From assembly GCA_002344005.1 (NCBI GenBank), contig DDTD01000046.1, positions 66,403-130,402 of the forward strand: a stretch of DNA of 64,000 nt, read 5' to 3'. The notes below the pieces were generated by a model. It searched no databases. It was not told the origin of the DNA and saw nothing but the letters and a program-made list of their open reading frames with translations. This document shows positions 21,720-45,736 of this stretch, piece by piece. The position numbers and the translations under genes are program-made. The stretch comes from Ignavibacteria bacterium UBA2373 (GTDB taxonomy: Bacteria; Bacteroidota; Ignavibacteria; Kapaibacteriales; UBA961). The number at the start of each line of letters is the position of its first letter. Position 1 is the stretch's first letter.

Positions 21720-22076
21720 ATGGCGGAGGGTAGAAGTTATGTTAATTTAGCTAGTGAATCACGAACAGCTCACATAATTGCAAGTGATGCAACAGGTGGT
21801 GGACATGCATGGTTTGGAAGTTGGAAAAGCTTTTCAAATGGAATTACGGGTCAAAAAACAATGTTTCCGATTACTTGGAGTAAAAATAAAATTATGCATG
21901 CTGCTTCGGATGTTTTAGTAAATAACCCAATTGCAAGGCAAACAGGATCAGCCGGAAGTCTTTTTGAAAGAAGTGGAAGACTATCAAGATTCACAACTTT
22001 TGGGGAATATCAAGGAGTTAAAATAAAAGTAGTTTGGGATAATACAGATATAATTACAGCACTTCCTATAAAATGA
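21720..22076 (+). CDS. Orphan polymorphic-toxin C-terminal domain, bacterial EndoU-like RNase (118 aa, no delivery or N-terminal region)
   Basis: GGGHAW...KTMFPITWSKNKIMHAASDVL...GVKIKVVWDNTDIITALP matches the EndoU_bacteria pattern (GGxH, K..FP..Ws..kI, C-terminal ...iTAyP). An in-frame stop lies 45 nt upstream of the ATG, so the gene is a standalone module. AT-rich. Confidence 0.55.
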   Translation: MAEGRSYVNLASESRTAHIIASDATGGGHAWFGSWKSFSNGITGQKTMFPITWSKNKIMHAASDVLVNNPIARQTGSAGSLFERSGRLSRFTTFGEYQGVKIKVVWDNTDIITALPIK

Positions 22077-28890: not shown

Positions 28891-30216
28891 TTATCGTTTA
28901 AGCTGATTGATTTCACCAAGGAACTGGTCACTTATAGTCACTGTACGCGATGCGGCTTCAAAAGCTCTTTGCGTAGTGATAAGATCGGTAAACTGTTCGG
29001 TCAAATCAACATTAGACTCTTCCAATGCGGTTGAGTTTATACGGGTGGAAGGGAAAATTTCCACAGCCGTTCCCACTGTGGGCAATCCACTATTAGGAGA
29101 TATGGAGAAGAAGTTACCGCCTTCTTTCATCAATCCGCCCGGATTGGTAAAGCGTGCAAGCACTACTTGACCCAATAGCTCTGACTGACCATTGGTAAAT
29201 GCTCCAAGTATCTTACCTGTCTGATCAACCGAAATTCTTGAAAGTTCACCGGAAGTATATCCATCTTGTTCGCGAGCTGTTACTGTATTCAAACCGGCGA
29301 ACTGAGTTAAACCGCCTAATAAATTATCGGGCGTGGCTAAAGTTATAGTCACATCCTTGGGTGTATCCTGATCAAATGCATTCGATGTACTGACAGCATT
29401 TAATGCACTTGCGGCTAAAGTAAAGTTTAATGGAGTTTGAAGTGTACCGTCAGAATTAAAATTGATGGATGTGGGTGCTCCGGCAATAGGTGTAGAATTA
29501 CCATCCATTGTCGCCACTAAACCAAAGGTGTTTGGAGCAGTTTTCGTGAAAGCTAAATTCAAAACGCGAGGCGCACCCTGCGTATCATAAATAGTGATAC
29601 TTGTATTAAACTCATCGCCTGTATTTGCATCACCACGTAAATTACCTGTAATCTGTACACTTTGAGTTTGGCGCGGTGCAGATTTAAATGTTGGCGATAT
29701 TTGTACATTTGTTACTTTACGATTTAATTGATTGGTGCCACTTGAATCTTTCAACACACGACCTGAACTATCTGTTTCAAGATTATAGCCCTGCACATAA
29801 GAGCCGGAAGAACTATCCACAAGATTACCACGGGAATCTAAGGAGAATGCTCCTGCACGTGAATATAATGTTTGACCATTTTGCTTAAACACAAAAAGTC
29901 CATCGCCTTGCAAAGCCAAATCAAGTGCACGAGTTGTATTTTGTATAGATCCTTGATTTAAATCTAATTTAATTGCACCGAGGCGAACGCCTAAACCAAT
30001 TTGAACCGGATCGCCACCACCGATACCGCCCGCGGCTATATTACTTGGTGAAGAACCTGAACCAAATGTTTGTGAAAATTGCTCGGCAAATGTTGTGCGG
30101 CTTCCTTTAAACCCTATAGTATTAACATTTGCGATATTATTAGAAATAACATCAAGACGTTGTTGATGCGCACGCAGGGAACTTGTGCCTGCCGATAAAG
30201 AACGAATAAGTGCCAT
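28891..30216 (-). CDS. flgE: Flagellar hook protein FlgE
   Basis: N-terminus MALIRSLSAGTSSLRAHQQRLDVISNNIANVNTIGFK and C-terminus ...RAFEAASRTVTISDQFLGEINQLKR are canonical rod/hook-family termini; 442 aa from the ATG at 30216. That ATG follows a GGAGGT RBS; the ORF track extends it 11 codons upstream. Confidence 0.85.
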   Translation of the reverse strand: MALIRSLSAGTSSLRAHQQRLDVISNNIANVNTIGFKGSRTTFAEQFSQTFGSGSSPSNIAAGGIGGGDPVQIGLGVRLGAIKLDLNQGSIQNTTRALDLALQGDGLFVFKQNGQTLYSRAGAFSLDSRGNLVDSSSGSYVQGYNLETDSSGRVLKDSSGTNQLNRKVTNVQISPTFKSAPRQTQSVQITGNLRGDANTGDEFNTSITIYDTQGAPRVLNLAFTKTAPNTFGLVATMDGNSTPIAGAPTSINFNSDGTLQTPLNFTLAASALNAVSTSNAFDQDTPKDVTITLATPDNLLGGLTQFAGLNTVTAREQDGYTSGELSRISVDQTGKILGAFTNGQSELLGQVVLARFTNPGGLMKEGGNFFSISPNSGLPTVGTAVEIFPSTRINSTALEESNVDLTEQFTDLITTQRAFEAASRTVTISDQFLGEINQLKR

Positions 30217-30335
30217 AATGAATGACCTCCAATAAGAAAAAAAATATTTCAAAAAAACATCAAATCATCAGTCAGTCAGATTTGATTTGGAGGGATTTCC
30301 TGCCATAGCAATGGCGAGGTCCTATCCCTGATTAT

Positions 30336-30761: not shown

Positions 30762-31454
30762 TTATGGAATAATTTCAACAATATCCGCCAATGGCATTTC
30801 ACCACCATTAACAACAAGCATTGTACCTTCTTGTTTAAATCTCAAGCCACTTACGGTACCGCGCACAAATGTTTTTGCTTCAACGGGTGATGAACCCGCT
30901 GTAGCAACAACTTCGATGCGATAATTATCTTTTCCCAACATCTGACCCCGATTATTTTTTCCGTCAAACATCAGGGTATGACGGCCATTTTTCAAATTTG
31001 CGCCCTCAAGTGGAATGCTTCTTACAACGGCACCTGCTTCCGTTTTAATTTGTAAAACACCCTCTGATGCAGACTGCGGTAAATCGTATGCAATTGTCAC
31101 AGGATTAGCACCGTCAAATGCCAAATAATCTGTTTGAGCTTCGACATTTTTACCGATGAGTGCAGGCGCACTTGCATTTGTTACGGATGCCGCAAGTACT
31201 TTATTACCCTCTAATTGATTTTCCAGTAATTTACTGATATTTGTTAATTGTTCTAACGATGAAAATTGTGCTAACTGCGAAGCAAACTCTTGGCCTTCTT
31301 GCGGTTTTAATGGGTTCTGAGATTTCATTTGTTGTGTTAATAATTTTAGAAACTCTTCTTTACCCAGTTCTTTCTTTGGAGCTGTACCTGTTTTTCGTAA
31401 ATCCTCAAATACATTACTCGTATTCGATGTATTATTTACTGATGTTGTTGCCAT
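30762..31454 (-). CDS. flgD: Flagellar hook capping/assembly protein FlgD
   Basis: LGKEEFLKLLTQQMKSQNPLKPQEGQEFASQLAQFSSLEQLTNI is the conserved FlgD N-domain. The C-terminal FlgD Ig-like region is also present. Confidence 0.8.
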   Translation of the reverse strand: MATTSVNNTSNTSNVFEDLRKTGTAPKKELGKEEFLKLLTQQMKSQNPLKPQEGQEFASQLAQFSSLEQLTNISKLLENQLEGNKVLAASVTNASAPALIGKNVEAQTDYLAFDGANPVTIAYDLPQSASEGVLQIKTEAGAVVRSIPLEGANLKNGRHTLMFDGKNNRGQMLGKDNYRIEVVATAGSSPVEAKTFVRGTVSGLRFKQEGTMLVVNGGEMPLADIVEIIP

Positions 31455-31473: not shown

Positions 31474-34400
31474 TTATCGCTGTGATTGAAAAATTCTATT
31501 AAATGCACTGGTAGTATAATTTACCGTTGTTTGTGATTTTCGTGCATCGGCAGCATATTTAAACGATCGAGTAAATTGTTGACGACTCTCTTGTTCTTGC
31601 TGCGATTGACCTTGGCGATTATGCGAAGAATATTGTGAATTATGGGACATTTCTTCCTCTTTTTTTCGCACAGTCACTTCCACGCTATCAAGTTGCATGC
31701 CTTGTTTACCAAATTGATCTTTTAATTGAGGAAGCTGTGACTCAATTATCTGTTTCGTTTGCTGTGAATCAACTTGTATTTGTAATTGTGTATCAGAATT
31801 TAAAGTGGAATATCGCACAATGACTGTACCTAACTCTTCAGGTTGCAATACCATACGTACTGTTCCATTTCCTTGTGTTTTTGAGGAAATATATTCATGA
31901 GCCTTATCCGCAAAATGCTGTACCGGTAATAATTCCATTATTTCCATAGATGCAACCTTTTTTATAGTAGGTATGCCGACTTTTTGGACTGGCTGAATAT
32001 GAACATTGTGAGGAATAATGATAGAATCTTGAGAAGGGAAATTACTATTTTCAGTCAAGACAAAATTTTGAGAACTATCTGCTACTCCTAAAGATTGATT
32101 TGAGATTGGTGATAATGTCGTTTGTATTTCATTTTCTACATCAATATTATCACTTTTTGACTTAATACTTGAGTTTTGCTGCAATAGATTGCTTTGATTA
32201 TTAATATTATTCGTTATCTCCCCTCTTGGTACTACTCGCTCAGAAGTAGAGGTAATGAACATATTATTAAAAGTATTGTTTTTTTCTACATTCTGATTCG
32301 CAACTGCATTTTTTAACGAAGAACGATAGTGTGATAATTCTTTTTTGAGTAAACTATTATCTTGGTTTGTTGAATTTTGTTGAGTTAGATTTTCGGACTT
32401 TTTAATTATACCATCATTAAAAACGACTGTTTTTTCATATTCAACAAAAGACAAACCTTTCTTTACTTCAGATTTTTTTTCTACCTCACCGGATATTTGC
32501 TTAGAAACAAAACTTCTTTGTATTTTTTCCGAACCATCGTTTGTTTCCAACGAATTCAAAACGTTCATTTTAACTTCATTGGGAATAGTCTCGACTGATT
32601 TTTCAAGGTGGATCTTTTTTGTATTTCGAGAATCAACTTGAGTGTTCTGTATTATAGCGTCAGATGGAGAAGTAGCACTATCATTATAGCGAATCTTAAA
32701 GACAATATTTTTAACCGGAACACCGACTGACGACGCCTTTTCAATAATGGAATGAAGTGCCATTACCGTATTCGGAATAACTTGATGAGAAGTTTGTATA
32801 TCAGAAGGTGGAGTTACAACAATTGCTGAATTATCATGGGTTTTGTTCTTTAAGACATAGAGTGCACCATCGCTGGTTTGTAATGGCTCATGAACAGTAC
32901 GATCAAAAGCCGAAGTATTAAGTATTTTCACAGCTTTAGAATCAGTATCATCATTGATTGTTAATTCTTCATCATTCTCAATAACTTCCTGTTCATCTAA
33001 GTTCTCCGGAACAATTGATTCATAGGTATTCTTTAGTGTATGAACTAATATTGTATCTGTCGGTTGTATAATTGATTTTGATTTGTCATCATTTTGTTTA
33101 ATAGTATGTTGATTGGTTTTCGATGCAATACTTACATTGTCATCAATTCTACTATCCGTTCTTTCTGTAAAAGGAATATTTGACAAAGTGTTAAGTTGTA
33201 TATTCTCCTTGGTTTTTTTACTGAGATTATGTACACCTTTATTTTTCAAAGATTCCTGTTTAGATAAAGATACTATTTGTGGACTATTGTCATTTTTCAC
33301 CATTACATTGTCATCAACAATACCAGCATCACCATTAAATGTATCATTTTTTGAAACTTGATAAACATTGTTATCTAATTGAGTTGATTTTTTTATCTCA
33401 GTAACAACATTCTCTTTCGAGGACAATGCAACAGTATTAGTTTCTTGACTTTTACCTATAGTAACTCGATCATAAGTAAGCGACTCCGAAGATGTCACGG
33501 TAGCATTTAACTTGTTGTCATTTATAACAGCATTGTCTTCAGCTTCCGTAAGAATCGCATTATTATGAGTATTTGTTGTATTATGAGTAATAGTATTTTT
33601 CGATTTTTGATTAAGTTCTGTCAATAAAGTACTATTACTTTTATCACTGTACAGTAATCCGGCATCAGTTTCTTGTACTTCGTCAACGACAGGTTTAGGC
33701 GGAACCTTATATATTACCTCTGATTTGAAAACTTTATCGTGTTTGACAGTATCTAAGTTATTATCTGAAAATGTATTCTTTTTCTGATTCTGATGTACTT
33801 TCGGTGTATTTCCTACAGCATTCGATTCTCCCTTAGATGCACTACTTTCAACTGAATTAAGATTATTGATAGTTTTTAATAAAATTGCTTCTTCTTCTGG
33901 AGAATATTCAACAGACGGAATATCACGCTTTTTAAATTTCATATTGTTGTCATCTGAATCAAAAACACCATAATCAGATGTATTTTTCACAGTCGAATCA
34001 TCGTTTGAGATAATGTCAGAAATTAATTTTATATCCTGCTTGGAAGTATTTCGAGTACCATTATCAATTGATTCATGAATTATTTGCTCAGTAGATGTAT
34101 TATTTACAACACTATTATAGACCGAGTCTTTTTTAGTCTTATTTACAACAATATTATTGACATTGTTTAAGCCAATATCTTTTAGGCTAATGCTATAAGA
34201 ATCATTATTTTCTAAAGCAGATATCTGCTCAGAATAAACCATATGATTATTTGACTTTTTTTTGTCTGATAAAACATTTAATTCATTTACAGTGCTATTT
34301 TCTTTATAATTTAAGGTATCTGATGAATGTACTTTTTGTTGTCCGTCTATATCATAGTCTTTTAATCTATTACGGGACAGCCTGTCAACAGTATATCCTT

Positions 34401-37400
34401 GCACAGTCTGATTTTTATTCTCTTTTGTATGAAGATCTGAAATATTACTTTCATGCGGTGATCTATACATGATATTATCACTCGAATCAACAGATATTTC
34501 TTCTTGAGAATTGTCTAATATAAGATTTACACGATGTTCTGAACTGTTTTTCTCACCACCGTCTGCTGTCTGACGTGCACCTACTTTATCCGATATAACT
34601 GCGTTTGTAGCAGATTTCACTTTTGCAAATGATAATCTTTCTAATGGTTTTGCACTTTTTTCTTGTATTCCTGATGTTGCTTTGGATTTACTATTACCTT
34701 TCAACAACTCAATTTCTGAACGAACTGTAACAGATTTAGCGGAAAAATCTAATTTCGCCGATGATTCCTCCGAAGAATTATCTATGACAATACTGTGTTC
34801 AGTAAGATTTTTCTTATCACCGTCTGTCTGATGTACACCCAATTTATCAGATGTATCGTTTTCTAATTTTGCAAATAATGATTTCTCTAATGGTTTTGTA
34901 CTTTGTTCTTGTATTCCTGCTACTACTTTGGATTTACTATTACCTTCCAATGACTCAATTTCTGAACGAACAATAACAGATTTAGCGGAAAAATCTAATT
35001 TCGCCGATGATTCCTCCGAAGAATTACCTGTTACAAGAGCAACATTACTTTCTGAAAGATTTTTCTCACCACCATCTGTCTGATGTACACTCAATTTATC
35101 AAATGTATCGTTTTCTGATTTTGTAAATGATGATTTCTCTAATGGTTTTGTACTTTGTTCTTGTATTCGTGCTACTGCTTTGGATTTACTATTACCTTCC
35201 ATTGACTCAATTTCTGAACGAACAATAACAGATTTAGCGGAAAAATCTAATTTCGCCGATAATTCTTCCGAAGAATTATCTGTTACAAGAGCAACATTAT
35301 GTTCTGAAAGATTTTTCTCACCACCGTCTGCTTGATTTACTCCTAAATTATTAGTAAAAACTTCGATTATTTCTTTATCGTCAATAGATTTTGTACTTGA
35401 TGTTTTATGAGTAAACGTATTTGCATACGTTTTAGAGTTATCTCTAGTACTTTCAATAGGAATAGAATTCTCAGTATTGCTTCCGTTTGTGATTTCTTTT
35501 ATTGATTCAGAAAAGAAATGTCCGGATGTTTTTTGAATTATCTTTTCAATACTTCTTTCTGATTCTTCGACATCAATAGTACGATTTGATTGTTTTGATT
35601 TTATTGAAGAAAATTTATCATAATCGCTTTCATTATATTCCGTACCTGTATGTATTTCTACGTTTTCACCTGTTCTTAATACATCTTGAAAAGAAATTTT
35701 GGAGTTTTTTGCATTACCTTGATCTATTGTCTGATCAATAATAGAGTCTTTAGCATATTGCCTAACAGTTTGCTGTTGTTCTAGCGAAATGCTCTTTGCA
35801 ACAAGATTTTTCTCATTATGTTCATTTTGTGATGTTTCACTATATGTTATTTTTTGATTGTTTGCTTGTTGAGATGTATCTGGCATTGACATGACTTTAG
35901 ATTCAGGTCTTTTTTCCTCATTTTGATTATATGATAGATGATTTTCAATCTGAGGATGGTTTATATCCGCGTCAATATCATCATTATAAATATTGTTTTG
36001 CGATGATTTTATTGTTTGAATGATTGAGGTCTTAGTACGGATAGTGCTGTTTTCAATATTTACTGATTTATCATCTTCCTTCAATGTATTCACATACATT
36101 CCTATAGCAGGTGCTTTTTCAGATGATAGTATTTTTGATGTCGTATTTTCAAATTGTGCCACTGTGTTTACTTCATTATTAGTCTTCTTCACTCCGGCAT
36201 TCTTAATTTTTGCTTCTGCATCACTATTATATGCGATGATATTTTCTCTATCGTTCTGACTTTTCAATTCAGACTTATCATGAATAAGCTGTTCATTGAC
36301 TATGTCTGTTTTTTCCAATGTATTTCTCGAATTGCTTGAATTGTTGTATTTATTTGCATTCGATATCGGTTGAAATTTTTCTGTTAATTGTGCATGCTTT
36401 TCATTATTTCTATGAAACTCAAGACTATTTTCTTCAGGAAATAATTTTTCAATGTATTCTTCAATAGCAGCATTCTGCAAACTCGGATCTACCGTTGTTA
36501 TTGATATTGATTTCCTTGTATTTTTATTATCTATATTATCTGTATTGGAATTTTCATCTCCAACAGGCTGATTAATTTTGTTTTGTTGTTCATCACCTAT
36601 ATTATCTAAATTGGAATTTTCATTTCCAACAAGTTGGTTAATCTTGTTTTGTGATATATATGTGTCTTTAGCTCGACTTTTATTTACTACATTTTCTTGC
36701 AATGAATCACTCCCATGATAACTCATTGCTTTATCTTTATACGGGAATGTATTATTCTTTACGGCTTTGTCTGATTCACTATTATTTACATTTTGTTGAG
36801 ACTGCAGGACTCCACCTTTGATAGTATCATTATAAAACCTCATTGGTATATTCTGTTCTTCATTTGTACCATTTTGAAGCGGTAATGATGTATTTGATGC
36901 TTTATTTGACCCTTGAGGTAGATTTAAGTTCTTATTAGCAGTTATACTTTCATTTGTCGAAGTTATTGTATCAGGATTTGATATAGACTCAGCATGATTA
37001 TTTAGATTTACGACTTTAGTATGCTGTGGAAGTACAGTTTTCTCTTGTAAACCATTATTAACCGGTTTATGATATACTGATCCAAATACTTGTTCAAAGC
37101 TTACTTCCGTATTTTGATTGTTGTACTTTACAGTCACTTGATCTTTACTAAAGGAACTCTCCAACGGTTGTGATTTTTGTTGCATGGGTATCCATAAATT
37201 TTGGATTACCATATCAATAATGTGCGGTATTTCCTCCTGTGATGTTGTCGAAATATCAACACGTACTTGAATATCCTCATTATGTGAGGAAAGTAAATTG
37301 ATTTGAACTTTACTTTTATTGTGCACCTTCATTGAATCACTAAAATCTCGTATCATGGATTCAATTTCTGAAGATTTTTCCTTATTTTTCGATTGTGTAT

Positions 37401-37971
37401 TTGATAGAACAATATCTGTGGCACTATCATTTTTTTGTCTGTAAGAATCCGTCTTTTTACTATCAATGTTTATAGCATCAACTAATCCACCTACATTCGA
37501 GTTTTCTTTTGTTTTCTGAATCTCTGTATCGGTAGTGACTTGCTTTGCAAGAGTGGGATTATTGGCATCGAACAGTTGGGATTGTTTTTTCACTTTTTGA
37601 TTATCCAGACCTTGAAACAACGATAGCTCTTCTCCCTCCGAATCGTTTGAGGATTGGGATTTCACCACTATATCATATACATATTCCCATTGGTTATCTA
37701 TATCTGTCGTTGGTTGAAATATTCTAGCTGTATTTGATTGTACAACTTGCTCATTTTGTGTATAAGACGAATTTTCTTTTAATAAAGTAACAGGTACTGT
37801 GATATTGTTACGTGTGCTTTTAGCATCAATCGTTGATTGAAGCAGATTTGAAAAGGCAAATATTGGTGGAGAATAATCACCATCTGGCGATTTAGACACA
37901 GAGGCATCCGTAAGATTTCCGGATGAGTTTGTGAGAAAATGTATGTCTATTTTCATTGTTGCGTCCTGCAA
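31474..37971 (-). CDS. fliK: Giant FliK-like hook-length control protein (2165 aa): FliK C-terminal domain preceded by ~1900 aa of Asn/Ser/Thr/Lys-rich low-complexity sequence with internal tandem repeats
   Basis: The C-terminal ~150 aa (GNGTVRMVLQPEELGTVIVRYS...LQIQVDSQQTKQIIESQLPQLKDQFGKQGMQLDSVEVTV, then a Gln-rich tail) match the FliK/Flg_hook domain. The gene sits between fliJ/MotE-like and flgD, as fliK does in fla operons. Uninterrupted ORF. Confidence 0.65.
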   Translation of the reverse strand: MQDATMKIDIHFLTNSSGNLTDASVSKSPDGDYSPPIFAFSNLLQSTIDAKSTRNNITVPVTLLKENSSYTQNEQVVQSNTARIFQPTTDIDNQWEYVYDIVVKSQSSNDSEGEELSLFQGLDNQKVKKQSQLFDANNPTLAKQVTTDTEIQKTKENSNVGGLVDAINIDSKKTDSYRQKNDSATDIVLSNTQSKNKEKSSEIESMIRDFSDSMKVHNKSKVQINLLSSHNEDIQVRVDISTTSQEEIPHIIDMVIQNLWIPMQQKSQPLESSFSKDQVTVKYNNQNTEVSFEQVFGSVYHKPVNNGLQEKTVLPQHTKVVNLNNHAESISNPDTITSTNESITANKNLNLPQGSNKASNTSLPLQNGTNEEQNIPMRFYNDTIKGGVLQSQQNVNNSESDKAVKNNTFPYKDKAMSYHGSDSLQENVVNKSRAKDTYISQNKINQLVGNENSNLDNIGDEQQNKINQPVGDENSNTDNIDNKNTRKSISITTVDPSLQNAAIEEYIEKLFPEENSLEFHRNNEKHAQLTEKFQPISNANKYNNSSNSRNTLEKTDIVNEQLIHDKSELKSQNDRENIIAYNSDAEAKIKNAGVKKTNNEVNTVAQFENTTSKILSSEKAPAIGMYVNTLKEDDKSVNIENSTIRTKTSIIQTIKSSQNNIYNDDIDADINHPQIENHLSYNQNEEKRPESKVMSMPDTSQQANNQKITYSETSQNEHNEKNLVAKSISLEQQQTVRQYAKDSIIDQTIDQGNAKNSKISFQDVLRTGENVEIHTGTEYNESDYDKFSSIKSKQSNRTIDVEESERSIEKIIQKTSGHFFSESIKEITNGSNTENSIPIESTRDNSKTYANTFTHKTSSTKSIDDKEIIEVFTNNLGVNQADGGEKNLSEHNVALVTDNSSEELSAKLDFSAKSVIVRSEIESMEGNSKSKAVARIQEQSTKPLEKSSFTKSENDTFDKLSVHQTDGGEKNLSESNVALVTGNSSEESSAKLDFSAKSVIVRSEIESLEGNSKSKVVAGIQEQSTKPLEKSLFAKLENDTSDKLGVHQTDGDKKNLTEHSIVIDNSSEESSAKLDFSAKSVTVRSEIELLKGNSKSKATSGIQEKSAKPLERLSFAKVKSATNAVISDKVGARQTADGGEKNSSEHRVNLILDNSQEEISVDSSDNIMYRSPHESNISDLHTKENKNQTVQGYTVDRLSRNRLKDYDIDGQQKVHSSDTLNYKENSTVNELNVLSDKKKSNNHMVYSEQISALENNDSYSISLKDIGLNNVNNIVVNKTKKDSVYNSVVNNTSTEQIIHESIDNGTRNTSKQDIKLISDIISNDDSTVKNTSDYGVFDSDDNNMKFKKRDIPSVEYSPEEEAILLKTINNLNSVESSASKGESNAVGNTPKVHQNQKKNTFSDNNLDTVKHDKVFKSEVIYKVPPKPVVDEVQETDAGLLYSDKSNSTLLTELNQKSKNTITHNTTNTHNNAILTEAEDNAVINDNKLNATVTSSESLTYDRVTIGKSQETNTVALSSKENVVTEIKKSTQLDNNVYQVSKNDTFNGDAGIVDDNVMVKNDNSPQIVSLSKQESLKNKGVHNLSKKTKENIQLNTLSNIPFTERTDSRIDDNVSIASKTNQHTIKQNDDKSKSIIQPTDTILVHTLKNTYESIVPENLDEQEVIENDEELTINDDTDSKAVKILNTSAFDRTVHEPLQTSDGALYVLKNKTHDNSAIVVTPPSDIQTSHQVIPNTVMALHSIIEKASSVGVPVKNIVFKIRYNDSATSPSDAIIQNTQVDSRNTKKIHLEKSVETIPNEVKMNVLNSLETNDGSEKIQRSFVSKQISGEVEKKSEVKKGLSFVEYEKTVVFNDGIIKKSENLTQQNSTNQDNSLLKKELSHYRSSLKNAVANQNVEKNNTFNNMFITSTSERVVPRGEITNNINNQSNLLQQNSSIKSKSDNIDVENEIQTTLSPISNQSLGVADSSQNFVLTENSNFPSQDSIIIPHNVHIQPVQKVGIPTIKKVASMEIMELLPVQHFADKAHEYISSKTQGNGTVRMVLQPEELGTVIVRYSTLNSDTQLQIQVDSQQTKQIIESQLPQLKDQFGKQGMQLDSVEVTVRKKEEEMSHNSQYSSHNRQGQSQQEQESRQQFTRSFKYAADARKSQTTVNYTTSAFNRIFQSQR

Positions 37972-38083
37972 AATTCATCGAATTGATGAAAGGGTTTATC
38001 CTTACCCTTTGTTCTTTTCTACATTTTTTTAGTCATACATATTGCGTACAACTACTGTAAAACAATCATTCGTTTGTCTAAAT

Positions 38084-38647
38084 TTACTCTTGAGTTGCAC
38101 TTAAAACCAGAATTGATGCAGCAAGCTCAGGTTTAATATTTTCAAGGACTTTTGCAGCATTCTTTGGTTTCATTTTTTTCAAAATAAATGCTGCATCTCT
38201 TTCATCTAACTCACTAATGATTTTAGCTACGTCTTCGGGGTTTGCTTTATCATACATTTGTGCAAACACAGTATAATTAGTCCTAATCAGTGAATCTCTT
38301 TTCCTTGTAAGTTCCTGCTCAATCTTTGCGTTTTCAAGTTTTAAATACTCATTCGTTTTCTTAGCTTCATTGCCAATAGAACGAACTTTCATTAGTGAAT
38401 CAGAAATTTGTGCCAACTTTTTCTCTAGTGAATCATTTTTTTTCTTAATCTTATTGAGGTCACTCTTTTTAATTTTTACTGAATCAATGACAGACTTAGC
38501 TTTCTTCATTTGTGCTAATAATGCAACACTGTCAATCTTGGGCGGAGGAAAACCGAGGAATGTCGGATCGTATGTGTAAACGCCAAATAGTGTAGCCAGA
38601 AACACCAAAAAGAATACGGCAGTCCCTATGATTACTTTGAATATCAT
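38084..38647 (-). CDS. MotE/YlxF-like flagellar protein (N-terminal TM, coiled coil, C-terminal MgtE_N-like domain)
   Basis: C-terminus PEDVAKIISELDERDAAFILKKMKPKNAAKVLENIKPELAASIL resembles the MgtE_N fold of YlxF/MotE. Sits between fliJ and fliK as ylxF does in B. subtilis. Confidence 0.5.
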   Translation of the reverse strand: MIFKVIIGTAVFFLVFLATLFGVYTYDPTFLGFPPPKIDSVALLAQMKKAKSVIDSVKIKKSDLNKIKKKNDSLEKKLAQISDSLMKVRSIGNEAKKTNEYLKLENAKIEQELTRKRDSLIRTNYTVFAQMYDKANPEDVAKIISELDERDAAFILKKMKPKNAAKVLENIKPELAASILVLSATQE

Positions 38648-44280: not shown

Positions 44281-44583
44281 TTAAGCGCGACCATCAAACA
44301 ATGTGCCTTTGGTCGCCTGTTCTTCCTGTAAAGAACCGTTCTTCGTAAATACTGTATATGATTCTTTCTGTACTGATTCCTGTCCATAAGCACGCATCAC
44401 ATAATGGCGGGCGGCTATGCCCTGACCGCTACTCGATTGCCCTGCTGCTTCGCTAACTTTCGCCCGTGATGGCTCCGAAACTGCCGTATCAAAACTGTCA
44501 GTGATGCGCTCGCGCCGGCGAACAGGCAAACTTGGACGGCTGCCCGATGCTTGCGAATATGCTTTCACTGCTTGGATATTCAT
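44281..44583 (-). CDS. Hypothetical 100-aa Ser/Gly/Ala-rich protein inserted between flgC and fliE
   Basis: ORF exactly fills the flgC-fliE gap (about 15-nt spacers each side). No recognisable motif. Confidence 0.4.
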   Translation of the reverse strand: MNIQAVKAYSQASGSRPSLPVRRRERITDSFDTAVSEPSRAKVSEAAGQSSSGQGIAARHYVMRAYGQESVQKESYTVFTKNGSLQEEQATKGTLFDGRA

Positions 44584-45094: not shown

Positions 45095-45517
45095 CTATTG
45101 ATTAGCACCGCGTATCGCGTTCTGCATACCCTGAAAAAATCGCTGCGTCATTCGCGAAGCGAAGCGAAAACGTATCTGGTTCTGTGCCAATTCTGACATC
45201 TCCTTATCCACATTCACATGACTCTCTCCGCTAAATAATCGCTCCGGCTCCGGAATAGCCGCCGACTCGCCCTCACCGCGTATCTCACCATCTTGCAATG
45301 AACCTATAGGCAAATGACGACTATCACCACGCGCCCCACTCAATACCGTTTGCTGCTTTTGGAACTCCTCCTCAAACTTAACACGCTGCGGGCGATACAC
45401 AGGAGATGTCGCATTCGTCATATTAGTCGCTATCGTTTGCTGACGCATCGCATAAGCATCCAATGCCCGATTCATCAATGGCAAACGACCCTTCGTAAAC
45501 AAATGATCATGTATCAT
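45095..45517 (-). CDS. flgB: Flagellar basal-body rod protein FlgB
   Basis: NRALDAYAMRQQTIATNMTNATSPVYRPQRVKFEE and C-terminus HVNVDKEMSELAQNQIRFRFASRMTQ. The ATG at 45517 follows a GAGGAA RBS. The ORF track extends the frame 21 codons further upstream. Confidence 0.8.
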   Translation of the reverse strand: MIHDHLFTKGRLPLMNRALDAYAMRQQTIATNMTNATSPVYRPQRVKFEEEFQKQQTVLSGARGDSRHLPIGSLQDGEIRGEGESAAIPEPERLFSGESHVNVDKEMSELAQNQIRFRFASRMTQRFFQGMQNAIRGANQ

Positions 45518-45736
45518 ACTTACTTTTCCTCGACAATTACTTCTCGCAACACTTCCGCTCCCAAGTTCAATGCCAATCAATGCTCATAAACTATCACATA
45601 ACACAAAGCAATCCGAAACCTTGATTTCGCTACACTTACCAAAACATAACCACATAATTCACCCTCATAAACAAAGGACAATACCATCCATCTGAACAAT
45701 AATAACCATCACAAACAATCAAACAATCAGCAAATA

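What the first reader, a model, noticed from the sequence alone, without database searches (positions are those of the whole stretch)
31474..37971. Extraordinarily long FliK homologue (2165 aa), about five times the usual size
The C-terminal domain matches the FliK hook-length control/substrate-specificity switch domain, and the gene occupies the fliK slot. FliK acts as a secreted molecular ruler, and in Salmonella hook length scales with FliK length. The N-terminal ~1900 aa here are low-complexity, Asn/Ser/Thr/Lys/Asp-rich and AT-rich with no stop codons. This predicts either an unusually long hook or a ruler with additional function such as spacer, adhesin or periplasmic tether.
Basis: partly seen in the sequence, partly recalled or inferred. 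Interest (0 to 1): 0.7.

Follow-up and report, generated by a model that had tools for sequence, protein, structure and literature searches.

The report
Giant flagellar hook-length ruler protein FliK
This is a real, intact gene for a 2160-residue version of FliK, the secreted protein that tells a bacterium when its flagellar hook is long enough; a whole group of uncultured Kapabacteria-type bacteria share this giant form, which predicts either hooks several times the usual length or a new use for most of the protein.

Summary
Window 31474..37956 (- strand) is one uninterrupted gene of 2160 aa from its ATG, or 2165 aa from an upstream TTG. Its C-terminus is a FliK/T3S4 switch domain: Pfam Flg_hook 56 bits against a cut-off of 29.8, and a PDB match to Salmonella FliK-C. 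It sits in the fliJ / flbB-like / fliK / flgD / flgE slot.

It is not an assembly artefact. The identical protein is encoded in at least four independent assemblies. Orthologues of 2060-2215 aa occupy the same slot in other Kapabacteria-type genomes.

The protein is not uniform filler. Five conserved pieces are separated by about 1800 aa that AlphaFold predicts as disordered:
- an N-terminal strand plus a folded island at aa 197-263
- a helix near aa 500
- an island at aa 1686-1762
- the T3S4 domain
- the C-terminal tail

The linkers evolve almost neutrally (dN/dS 0.66-0.88, against 0-0.15 in the islands). They have decayed to 13-25% identity while total length stays within about 3%.

Giant FliKs of 1300-2450 aa are common among the nearest relatives, so this is a lineage trait and not a one-off. 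I found no paper describing it.

Extrapolating the Salmonella calibration of 0.2 nm per residue gives a hook of about 0.4 µm. That prediction is untested.

The parts
31474..37956 (-). fliK gene: 2160 codons from ATG 37956 plus the stop codon at 31474-31476. The ORF also extends 5 codons further upstream to a TTG at 37971.
37822..37956 (-). N island, aa 1-45. This is the most conserved part of the N-terminal region (62-100% pairwise identity). Residues 3-9 are predicted as a beta-strand (pLDDT 77). Presumed T3SS export signal and hook/cap-contact segment; this role is inferred.
   Evidence: dN/dS 0
37369..37821 (-). Linker L1, aa 46-196. Predicted disordered, 15-25% identity between lineages, dN/dS 0.66.
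37168..37368 (-). Island A, aa 197-263. Predicted helix-strand-strand-helix at pLDDT 73-85. Present at the same position in all 2060-2215-aa orthologues. No significant match to solved structures.
   Evidence: dN/dS 0.07
32902..37167 (-). Linker L2, aa 264-1685, the main spacer. Mean pLDDT about 27 with almost no predicted secondary structure. 13-22% identity between lineages, dN/dS 0.72. Length between islands A and B is 1281-1461 aa in 13 orthologues.
36421..36489 (-). Small conserved helix inside L2, aa 490-512, with motif Y-I-x-x-L-F-P-E. pLDDT about 70.
34621..35351 (.). 252-bp tandem repeat, 2.9 copies at 88% DNA identity. At protein level it is an 84-aa unit in about 3.5 copies, aa 866-1170, inside L2.
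32671..32901 (-). Island B, aa 1686-1762. Predicted strand-strand-strand-helix-strand at pLDDT about 50. 60-99% identity across lineages.
   Evidence: dN/dS 0.15
31927..32670 (-). Linker L3, aa 1763-2010. Predicted disordered, dN/dS 0.88. The spacing from island B to the T3S4 domain is 260-298 aa in all orthologues.
31477..31926 (-). C region, aa 2011-2160. It comprises the T3S4/Flg_hook switch domain (Pfam match at window 31660-31884) and an almost invariant Gln-rich, helical C-terminal tail.
   Evidence: dN/dS 0.08
37957..38010 (-). Conserved structured 5' leader of fliK. It has two hairpins followed by an invariant UUUUGCAGGA(U/C)GCAAC just before the AUG. GGA motifs sit in the loops.
38084..38647 (-). 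Upstream neighbour: 187-aa MgtE_N / FlbB-like protein, in the ylxF position of the operon.
30762..31454 (-). Downstream neighbour flgD (hook cap), 230 aa.
28891..30252 (-). flgE (hook protein), of ordinary size: 441-453 aa with D0/D1/D2 domains.

Best explanation
This is the fliK gene of a Kapabacteria/Ignavibacteria-type bacterium.

Shown: the product has a C-terminal T3S4 (Flg_hook) switch domain and a conserved tail, and it lies between fliJ/flbB and flgD-flgE.

Inferred from the Salmonella mechanism: it is exported N-terminus first through the flagellar type III apparatus while the hook grows. [quoted passage not shown]

What is special here is about 1750 residues between the N-terminal folded module (strand 3-9 plus island A) and the T3S4 domain. 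This stretch is disordered, polar, and free to vary in sequence, interrupted only by a short helix and island B. I read it as a sequence-independent spacer or measuring tape that grew by tandem duplication of 65-88-aa units and is kept open and long.

If the Salmonella calibration of 0.2 nm per residue holds, the switch would fire only at a hook length of roughly 0.3-0.4 µm instead of about 55 nm. That would mean ruler-controlled hooks of polyhook length.
For: FliK identity:
- Pfam PF02120 at 56.4 bits against a 29.8 cut-off.
- The C-domain profile hits PDB 2rrl (Salmonella FliK-C) at E 1.6e-6.
- The AF2 model's C domain matches the PscP T3S4 domain 5cuk (E 2.3e-4, TM 0.72) and 2rrl.
- The synteny fliF-G-H-I-J-flbB-fliK-flgD-flg_new-flgE is found in the window and in every orthologous locus.
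- It is the only T3S4 ORF in the window.

Real gene:
- The identical 2160-aa protein is encoded in four independent samples.
- A strain variant has 21 substitutions and no indel.

Spacer character:
- AF2 gives pLDDT about 26-27 and almost no secondary structure across about 1800 aa, while the islands reach 50-85.
- dN/dS is 0.66-0.88 in the linkers, 0-0.15 in the islands, and 0.01-0.05 in fliI, flgE and flgD.
- Linker identity between lineages is 13-25%, yet total length is 2060-2215 aa in 13 orthologues (CV 2.8%).
- Linker composition follows genome composition in other giant FliKs: N/S/K-rich here, A/P/S/T-rich elsewhere.
- Tandem 65-88-aa repeats occur in several lineages.

Clade trait:
- All 16 members of the surrounding C-domain clade are 1577-2452 aa.

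Calibration:
- Engineered Salmonella FliK of 363-785 aa gives hooks of 42-135 nm, linear at 0.2 nm per residue (PMC6126814).
- FliK-N and the linker act as the ruler, and FliK-C binds FlhB (PMC6972891).
Against: - No hook has been seen in these uncultured bacteria. The 0.2 nm per residue rule has been tested only up to 785 aa, and only in Salmonella.
- Very long hooks impair motility in Salmonella (PMC6126814). FlgE here is of ordinary size with no extra stiffening domains.
- Length selection is not demonstrated. A sign-permutation of the indels inferred from pairwise alignments shows that the observed length differences are no smaller than a random walk would give (P 0.05-0.88). One close pair differs by 60 aa.
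- The B-to-C spacing (260-298 aa) varies far less in absolute terms than the A-to-B spacing (1281-1461 aa). This leaves room for the alternative that only the last roughly 475 aa do the measuring.
- A Salmonella preprint argues that FliK caps the maximum hook length rather than measuring it strictly (10.1101/2020.03.25.007062).
Confidence: 0.5

Rival explanations
1. Only the last roughly 475 residues (island B, L3, T3S4 domain and tail) form the measuring and switching module. That is about the size of an ordinary FliK. Hooks would then be of ordinary length. The first roughly 1685 residues would be an N-terminal extension that leaves the hook tip first and serves another purpose, for example a long disordered extracellular tail, a secretion pacer, or a tether.
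For: - The B-to-C spacing is 260-298 aa in all 13 orthologues, including the most divergent ones. The A-to-B spacing ranges from 1281 to 1461 aa.
- Island B is strongly conserved (dN/dS 0.15). It has a weak resemblance to the helix-strand end of the T3S4 domain (hhalign E 0.007-0.013).
- A B-like motif occurs in other giant FliKs.
- L3 retains somewhat more sequence similarity than L2: 19-38% against 13-22%.
Against: - In Salmonella the ruler runs from the N-terminal region, which contacts the hook and hook cap, to FliK-C (PMC6972891; abstract of 10.1101/2020.03.25.007062). Here the extreme N-terminus and island A are the conserved N-terminal elements.
- No functional domain was detected in the first 1685 aa other than these.
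- The relative spread of the two spacings is about equal (CV 5.2% against 5.4%).
- The similarity of island B to T3S4 is not significant.
Confidence: 0.27
2. Neutral bloat. The linker has ratcheted up in length by tandem duplication because in-frame insertions are harmless, and hook length is set mainly by other factors such as FlgE supply or FliK export frequency. On this view the size has no adaptive meaning.
For: - dN/dS in the linkers is near neutral.
- Length differences are compatible with a random walk of the inferred indels.
- Recent tandem repeats are present.
- Lengths range from 1300 to 2450 aa across related clades.
- The Salmonella preprint shows that minimal hook length depends on FlgE supply rather than on FliK length.
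Against: - Every one of the 16 members of the surrounding clade keeps at least 1577 aa, and the 13 close orthologues keep 2060-2215 aa, even though linker sequence has decayed to background identity.
- Bacterial genomes generally lose non-functional DNA through deletion bias (general knowledge, not tested here).
- In Salmonella, adding residues to FliK does lengthen hooks linearly. Extra length is therefore not expected to be without effect.
Confidence: 0.2
3. Artefact: a mis-assembly through a repetitive AT-rich region, or two adjacent genes fused by a sequencing error.
For: Some NCBI records split the protein (1539 + 617 aa; 905 + 1159 aa partials). There is a 252-bp tandem repeat inside the gene.
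Against: - The identical full-length ORF is found in four independent assemblies from different projects.
- Orthologues of 2060-2215 aa occur in six further loci.
- The 617-aa NCBI fragment ends in a frameshifted tail, and the 905 and 1159-aa partials break at the repeat. Those records are the defective ones.
- There are no stops in frame, against 90-306 in the other frames.
Confidence: 0.02

Closest known systems
Salmonella enterica FliK (405 aa; FliK-N ruler 1-207, linker 208-267, FliK-C 268-405)
   Same: - C-terminal T3S4 switch domain followed by a conserved tail.
- Flexible or disordered region N-terminal to that domain.
- Operon position next to the hook genes.
- Presumably the same mechanism of export followed by FlhB switching.

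   Different: - 5.3 times longer.
- About 1750 aa of near-neutrally evolving disordered spacer.
- Additional conserved islands (A, a mid-linker helix, B) with no counterpart detected in Pfam, NCBIfam or PDB.
- No NCBIfam FliK model matches the whole protein.
Injectisome needle-length rulers SctP/YscP/PscP
   Same: The T3S4 fold: the best structural hit of the model is the PscP switch domain 5cuk. They share the ruler principle, and YscP helical segments lengthen Salmonella hooks when inserted into FliK.
   Different: Those proteins are encoded in injectisome loci and measure a needle. This gene sits in a flagellar operon with fliF-fliJ, flgD and flgE.
Other giant FliKs in the public protein collections (1300-2452 aa, e.g. 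NCBI MFN8360224.1 'Candidatus Kapaibacterium sp.', 2452 aa)
   Same: A single C-terminal Flg_hook domain preceded by a very long biased linker. Where checked, the same fliJ-x-fliK-flgD slot. They cluster with the query by C-domain similarity.
   Different: Islands A and B are recognisable only in the 2060-2215-aa subgroup. Linker composition differs (A/P/S/T-rich). Lengths differ.
Multi-domain FliK-like proteins with tandem Flg_hook domains (P0021, 1638 aa, 11 copies; P0025, P0032 and P0149 with 4-5 copies)
   Same: FliK relatives that have become long.
   Different: They are long through repetition of the folded T3S4 domain, not through a disordered spacer.
Phage tail tape-measure proteins
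   Same: Analogy only: a length-determining protein whose size is altered by internal tandem repeats (abstract of PMC13585406).
   Different: Unrelated in sequence and fold. They are helical proteins that stay inside the tail tube during assembly, not secreted T3SS substrates.

Membership tests
FliK (flagellar hook-length control protein) | C-terminal Flg_hook / T3S4 domain above the curated Pfam threshold | tested here: met
   PF02120 at 56.4 bits against a cut-off of 29.8, E 2.7e-15, profile positions 7-81 of 85.
FliK (flagellar hook-length control protein) | C domain related to experimentally solved FliK-C / T3S4 structures | tested here: met
   The profile hits 2rrl_A at E 1.6e-6. Foldseek of the AF2 model hits 5cuk (TM 0.72, E 2.3e-4) and 2rrl (E 7.6e-4). 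Model confidence in this domain is only moderate (pLDDT 55-72).
FliK (flagellar hook-length control protein) | Encoded in a flagellar operon next to the hook cap and hook genes | tested here: met
   The order fliJ - flbB-like - fliK - flgD - flg_new - flgE is found in the window and in ten orthologous loci (L001-L004, L006, L007, L009-L012).
FliK (flagellar hook-length control protein) | Flexible or disordered region between the N-terminal part and the T3S4 domain | tested here: met
   AF2 gives pLDDT about 26-27 with no secondary structure over most of aa 46-196, 264-1685 and 1763-2010. Composition falls on the disordered side of the charge-hydropathy boundary for L1 and L2.
FliK (flagellar hook-length control protein) | Conserved C-terminal tail after the T3S4 core, needed for switching in Salmonella | tested here: inconclusive
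   A 60-aa tail is almost invariant across orthologues (85-90% pairwise identity per window) and is predicted helical. Homology to the Salmonella tail and any role in switching were not tested.
FliK (flagellar hook-length control protein) | N-terminal signal for export by the flagellar type III apparatus, and secretion during hook assembly | not testable with these tools
   The first 45 aa are the most conserved N-terminal segment. A loose motif search for a shared FliK N-terminal pattern matched only 47 of 123 relatives and is not diagnostic.
FliK (flagellar hook-length control protein) | Binding to FlhB-C, and control of hook length (polyhooks when deleted) | not testable with these tools
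   The organism is uncultured and flhB is not in the window.
FliK (flagellar hook-length control protein) | Match to NCBI's curated FliK family models | tested here: not met
   No NCBIfam model matches the 2160-aa protein at E <= 0.01. NCBI nevertheless names close homologues 'flagellar hook-length control protein FliK'.
SctP/YscP injectisome ruler | Encoded within an injectisome (non-flagellar T3SS) gene cluster | tested here: not met
   All neighbours are flagellar genes: fliE-fliJ, flgB/C, flgD, flgE.

The most novel reading that the evidence does not exclude
A whole lineage of uncultured FCB-group bacteria (Kapabacteria and relatives) builds ruler-controlled flagellar hooks about 0.3-0.4 µm long, five to seven times the canonical 55 nm. 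They would do this with a 2000-plus-residue disordered tape whose sequence is free to drift while its length matters. That would be a natural, extreme test of the molecular-ruler model. It would also imply a flagellar architecture in which the hook acts as a long flexible or helical element, rather than a short universal joint.
Probability: 0.35. Interest if true: 0.8.

Novelty: new variant of a known kind. Interest (0 to 1): 0.55.

Why it matters
How FliK sets hook length is still argued: strict ruler, infrequent ruler, or maximum-length terminator. It has been probed only with engineered proteins of 310-785 aa in Salmonella, where hooks that are too long are harmful.

A natural clade in which FliK is 2000-2450 aa extends the test range threefold. 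In that clade the tape evolves almost neutrally in sequence while a few small islands are strictly conserved.

If hooks are correspondingly long, the ruler principle is general and hook length is an evolvable trait with unknown mechanical consequences. If hooks are normal, most of a 240-kDa secreted protein has some other, unknown role, and the true measuring segment can be mapped to the last roughly 475 residues. Either outcome is informative, and a single electron-microscopy experiment on enrichment material would decide between them.

Tried and rejected
1. Profile search of the large protein collection with 19 diverse C-domains (A2) returned nothing. The Gln-rich tails probably swamped the word index.
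3. Genome and metagenome scans with the closer alignment A3 gave only 3 and 2 loci. A large length survey by taxonomy was therefore not possible.
4. Looking up 20 other giant FliKs for organism names gave only one organism name, 'Ca. Kapaibacterium sp.'. A full-length search with P0026 found only itself.
6. The idea that islands A and B are degenerate copies of the T3S4 domain got only weak support: hhalign E 0.001 with probability 21% for A, and E 0.007-0.013 with probability 3-6% for B. I treat it as a hint only.
7. The idea that indels compensate so as to hold length constant was tested by sign-permutation of inferred indels and was not significant. Equal gap totals in equal-length pairs are a tautology of global alignment, so I dropped that argument.
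8. A shared N-terminal 'F-x-x-L-L' motif as a FliK signature matched only 47 of 123 relatives with a loose pattern.
9. A whole-protein self-BLAST for repeats failed. The windowed version worked.
10. Literature searches for giant or unusually long FliK, FliK in Ignavibacteria, and Kapabacteria flagella found no description of this feature.

Full report
**The observation**

The window carries an uninterrupted ORF on the minus strand from 37971 (TTG) to 31474, 2165 codons. The ATG at 37956 gives 2160 aa, and this exact sequence is present in public collections as P0001.

The frame contains no stop codon in 2160 codons, whereas the other five frames of the same DNA contain 90-306. Codon-position GC (0.43/0.32/0.21) follows the pattern of the neighbouring genes. 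Synonymous codon usage in the long linker correlates with that of the neighbours (r = 0.70). The gene is markedly more AT-rich (31.9% GC) than its neighbours (39-45%).

**Identity**

Pfam finds a single domain, Flg_hook (PF02120), near the C-terminus at 56.4 bits against a curated cut-off of 29.8. A profile of the C-terminal 175 residues of five orthologues hits the solved Salmonella FliK C-terminal domain 2rrl at E 1.6e-6.

In an AlphaFold model of residues 1081-2160 this region folds as helix, three strands, two helices and a strand (pLDDT 55-72). It superposes on the PscP substrate-switch (T3S4) domain 5cuk (TM 0.72, E 2.3e-4) and on 2rrl.

The gene order is (flgB)-flgC, a 100-aa ORF, fliE-fliF-fliG-fliH-fliI-fliJ, a 187-aa MgtE_N/FlbB-like gene, this gene, flgD, a TIGR02530 'flg_new' gene, and flgE. 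No other ORF in the window has a T3S4 domain. It is therefore the fliK orthologue.

**Not an artefact**

The identical 2160-aa protein is encoded on contigs from four independent sources, always in the same operon:
- a bioreactor sludge assembly, ERZ936793
- JGI metagenome 3300013771
- GenBank MAG GCA_002344465.1
- ERZ761603

A strain variant (P0008, also seen on a 4.0-Mb contig) differs by 21 substitutions and no indel. Eighteen of the substitutions lie in the linkers.

NCBI records that split the gene are the defective ones. The 617-aa fragment ends in a frameshifted tail, and the 905 and 1159-aa partials break at an internal repeat.

**Relatives and lineage**

Orthologues of 2136-2211 aa were found directly. 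More distant ones of 2060-2203 aa turned up in an exhaustive search with the C-terminal 176 residues. ORFs of 2215, 2072 and 2215 codons (measured from an upstream TTG) lie in the same slot in three further places:
- the genome of 'Candidatus Kapaibacterium sp. UWPOB_KAPA1'
- an unclassified MAG
- a metagenome contig

Names attached by NCBI are 'Candidatus Kapabacteria bacterium', 'Ignavibacteria bacterium' and 'Candidatus Kapaibacterium sp.'. A T9SS sorting-domain protein in the window fits an FCB-group organism.

Of the 150 best representatives in the exhaustive search, 37 are at least 1000 aa, 25 at least 1500 aa and 12 at least 2000 aa. The maximum is 2452 aa, also a Kapaibacterium. The median is 568 aa.

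In a neighbour-joining tree of 128 C-domains, the query sits in a group of 7 (2060-2211 aa), inside a group of 16 that are all at least 1577 aa. A 1335-aa member lies in a fliJ-x-fliK-flgD slot in another genome that also has a T9SS sorting-domain protein. Giant FliK is thus a lineage-wide trait. The tree rests on a short domain and is only indicative.

**Anatomy**

Aligning six full-length orthologues shows five conserved pieces separated by unalignable sequence:
- N (aa 1-45)
- island A (197-263)
- a short motif Y-I-x-x-L-F-P-E near aa 500
- island B (1686-1762)
- the C region (2011-2160)

Between lineages the islands are 57-90% identical and the linkers 13-25%. Islands A and B are found at equivalent positions in the more distant 2060-2203-aa proteins.

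AlphaFold models of both halves give pLDDT about 26-27 and almost no secondary structure across the linkers. The islands stand out:

| Piece | Predicted structure | pLDDT |
|---|---|---|
| Strand 3-9 | beta-strand | 77 |
| Island A | helix-strand-strand-helix | 73-85 |
| Helix 491-505 | helix | about 70 |
| Island B | three strands, a helix, a strand | about 50 |
| T3S4 domain | helix, three strands, two helices, strand | 55-72 |
| Tail | long helix | 38-50 |

The alignments behind these models hold only five sequences, so the low-confidence regions are evidence of disorder only in combination with composition. The linkers are polar, have no Cys or Trp, and fall on the disordered side of the charge-hydropathy line.

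Neither island matches any Pfam family. The N-terminal half (strand 3-9 plus island A) has no significant match to solved structures. Island B's helix-strand end and island A's strand pair resemble parts of the T3S4 profile only weakly.

**Evolutionary behaviour**

For the closest pair with DNA available (P0005/P0006, loci L010/L011), Nei-Gojobori dN/dS values are as follows:

| Region | dN/dS |
|---|---|
| L1 | 0.66 |
| L2 | 0.72 |
| L3 | 0.88 |
| N island | 0 |
| Island A | 0.07 |
| Island B | 0.15 |
| C region | 0.08 |
| fliI | 0.008 |
| flgE | 0.010 |
| flgD | 0.046 |

The linker sequence is therefore almost free to change, while the frame stays open.

Thirteen orthologues from about five lineages measure 2060-2211 aa from the ATG (CV 2.8%). 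The A-to-B spacing is 1281-1461 aa and the B-to-C spacing 260-298 aa.

This looks like conservation of length without conservation of sequence, but I could not prove it. Randomly reassigning the direction of the indels inferred from pairwise alignments gives length differences as small as those observed with P = 0.05-0.88. One close pair differs by 60 aa through two deletions.

The linkers gain length by tandem duplication:
- an 84-aa unit in about 3.5 copies here (a 252-bp DNA repeat at 34621-35351, 88% identical)
- a related 88-aa unit at the same place in the P0002/P0003 lineage
- 65-aa units, up to about 10 copies, in other giant FliKs

**Mechanism**

In Salmonella, FliK-N and the linker are the ruler and FliK-C binds FlhB to switch export specificity (PMC6972891). 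Engineered FliK of 363-785 aa gives tightly controlled hooks of 42-135 nm, at 0.2 nm per added residue (PMC6126814).

Extrapolating from 405 aa at 55 nm gives about 406 nm for 2160 aa. This is an inference far outside the tested range. Arguments against it:
- the motility cost of long hooks in Salmonella (same paper)
- the ordinary size of FlgE here
- a preprint arguing that FliK limits the maximum hook length rather than measuring it strictly

The main alternative is that island B, L3 and the T3S4 domain (about 475 aa, the size of a normal FliK) do the measuring. The first 1685 aa would then be an extension with another role.

A third reading is neutral growth of a harmless linker. The persistence of at least 1577 aa in all 16 clade members argues against it but does not exclude it.

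**Novelty**

The family is known, and NCBI already labels homologues as FliK. I found no paper that describes or discusses FliK proteins of this size, or the flagella of Kapabacteria in structural terms. The Ignavibacterium album genome paper lists flagellar genes without comment on FliK.

I rate it a new variant of a known kind. It has the same switch domain and genomic role. It differs in having a fivefold longer, near-neutrally evolving tape and extra conserved islands. It is shared by a clade of uncultured bacteria and makes a sharp, testable prediction about hook length.

Noticed in passing
window 37957-38010 (- strand); also L006, L007, L009-L012 just upstream of fliK: The fliK 5' leader is conserved across divergent lineages. 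It has a hairpin AGGGU[AAGGAUAA]ACCCU, then a second hairpin UUCAUC[AAUUC]GAUGAA (replaced by a different stem, AACAA/UUGUU, in L007), then a U-run. An invariant UUUUGCAGGA(U/C)GCAAC follows, forming a short stem with GGA in the loop 4 nt before the AUG. Two GGA-in-loop sites about 40 nt apart, one at the ribosome-binding position, resemble CsrA binding sites (from my recollection of the CsrA consensus). No csrA gene is in the window.
   Followed up: partly
window 34621-35351 (inside fliK, aa 866-1170): A 252-bp tandem repeat, 2.9 copies at 88% identity, encoding an 84-aa unit. A related repeat of about 88 aa lies at the same position in the P0002/P0003 lineage. Two NCBI partial proteins of this species break here, so the repeat seems to fragment some assemblies.
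   Followed up: partly
proteins P0021 (1638 aa), P0025 (912 aa), P0032 (1161 aa), P0149 (1347 aa): FliK-like proteins with 11, 5, 4 and 4 tandem Flg_hook/T3S4 domains. P0021 scores 559 bits in total against PF02120. This is a different way of making a long FliK, by repeating the folded switch domain.
   Followed up: no
proteins P0040, P0042, P0047 (other Kapaibacterium-type giant FliKs), aa ~334-420: A motif P-x-T-x-x-L-x-x-L-L-x-Q-A-K-E-Q-G-x-x-V-Q-x-V-V-I resembling island B of the window's FliK (IPNTVMALHSIIEKASSVGVPVKNIVFKIR). In these proteins it lies near the N-terminus instead of about 280 aa before the T3S4 domain. The match is weak (E 1e-3 among 169 sequences).
   Followed up: partly
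window 38084-38647 (- strand): The 187-aa protein between fliJ and fliK matches MgtE_N (29.5 bits). It also matches, weakly, the spirochaete flagellar collar protein FlbB model (NF047368, 21.5 bits against a cut-off of 110).
   Followed up: no
window 44281-44583 and 45095-45580 (- strand): There is a 100-aa ORF between flgC and fliE. The 161-aa ORF in the flgB position has no Pfam match at 1e-4. Both are called as genes in the orthologous contigs.
   Followed up: no
window 21720-22076 (+ strand) and surrounding 21-24 kb: A 118-aa gene whose identical copy in L001 carries a precomputed EndoU_bacteria (PF14436) toxin-domain hit. It sits in a low-GC stretch (32-36%) where GC skew changes sign, among several small unannotated ORFs. 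This may be a toxin/immunity islet.
   Followed up: no
protein P0007 (JGI, 1796 aa): The first roughly 1130 aa are FliK of the P0003 lineage. The rest is Arg/Leu/Asp-rich sequence of quite different composition. This is probably a chimeric contig or an ORF read through on the wrong strand.
   Followed up: no
L005 (JAYRWZ010000510.1, 1511 bp): A short contig carrying the 3' end of a Kapaibacterium-type fliK (82% identical to the query's C-terminal 175 aa) is binned in a MAG labelled Chloroflexota. This is likely a binning error.
   Followed up: no
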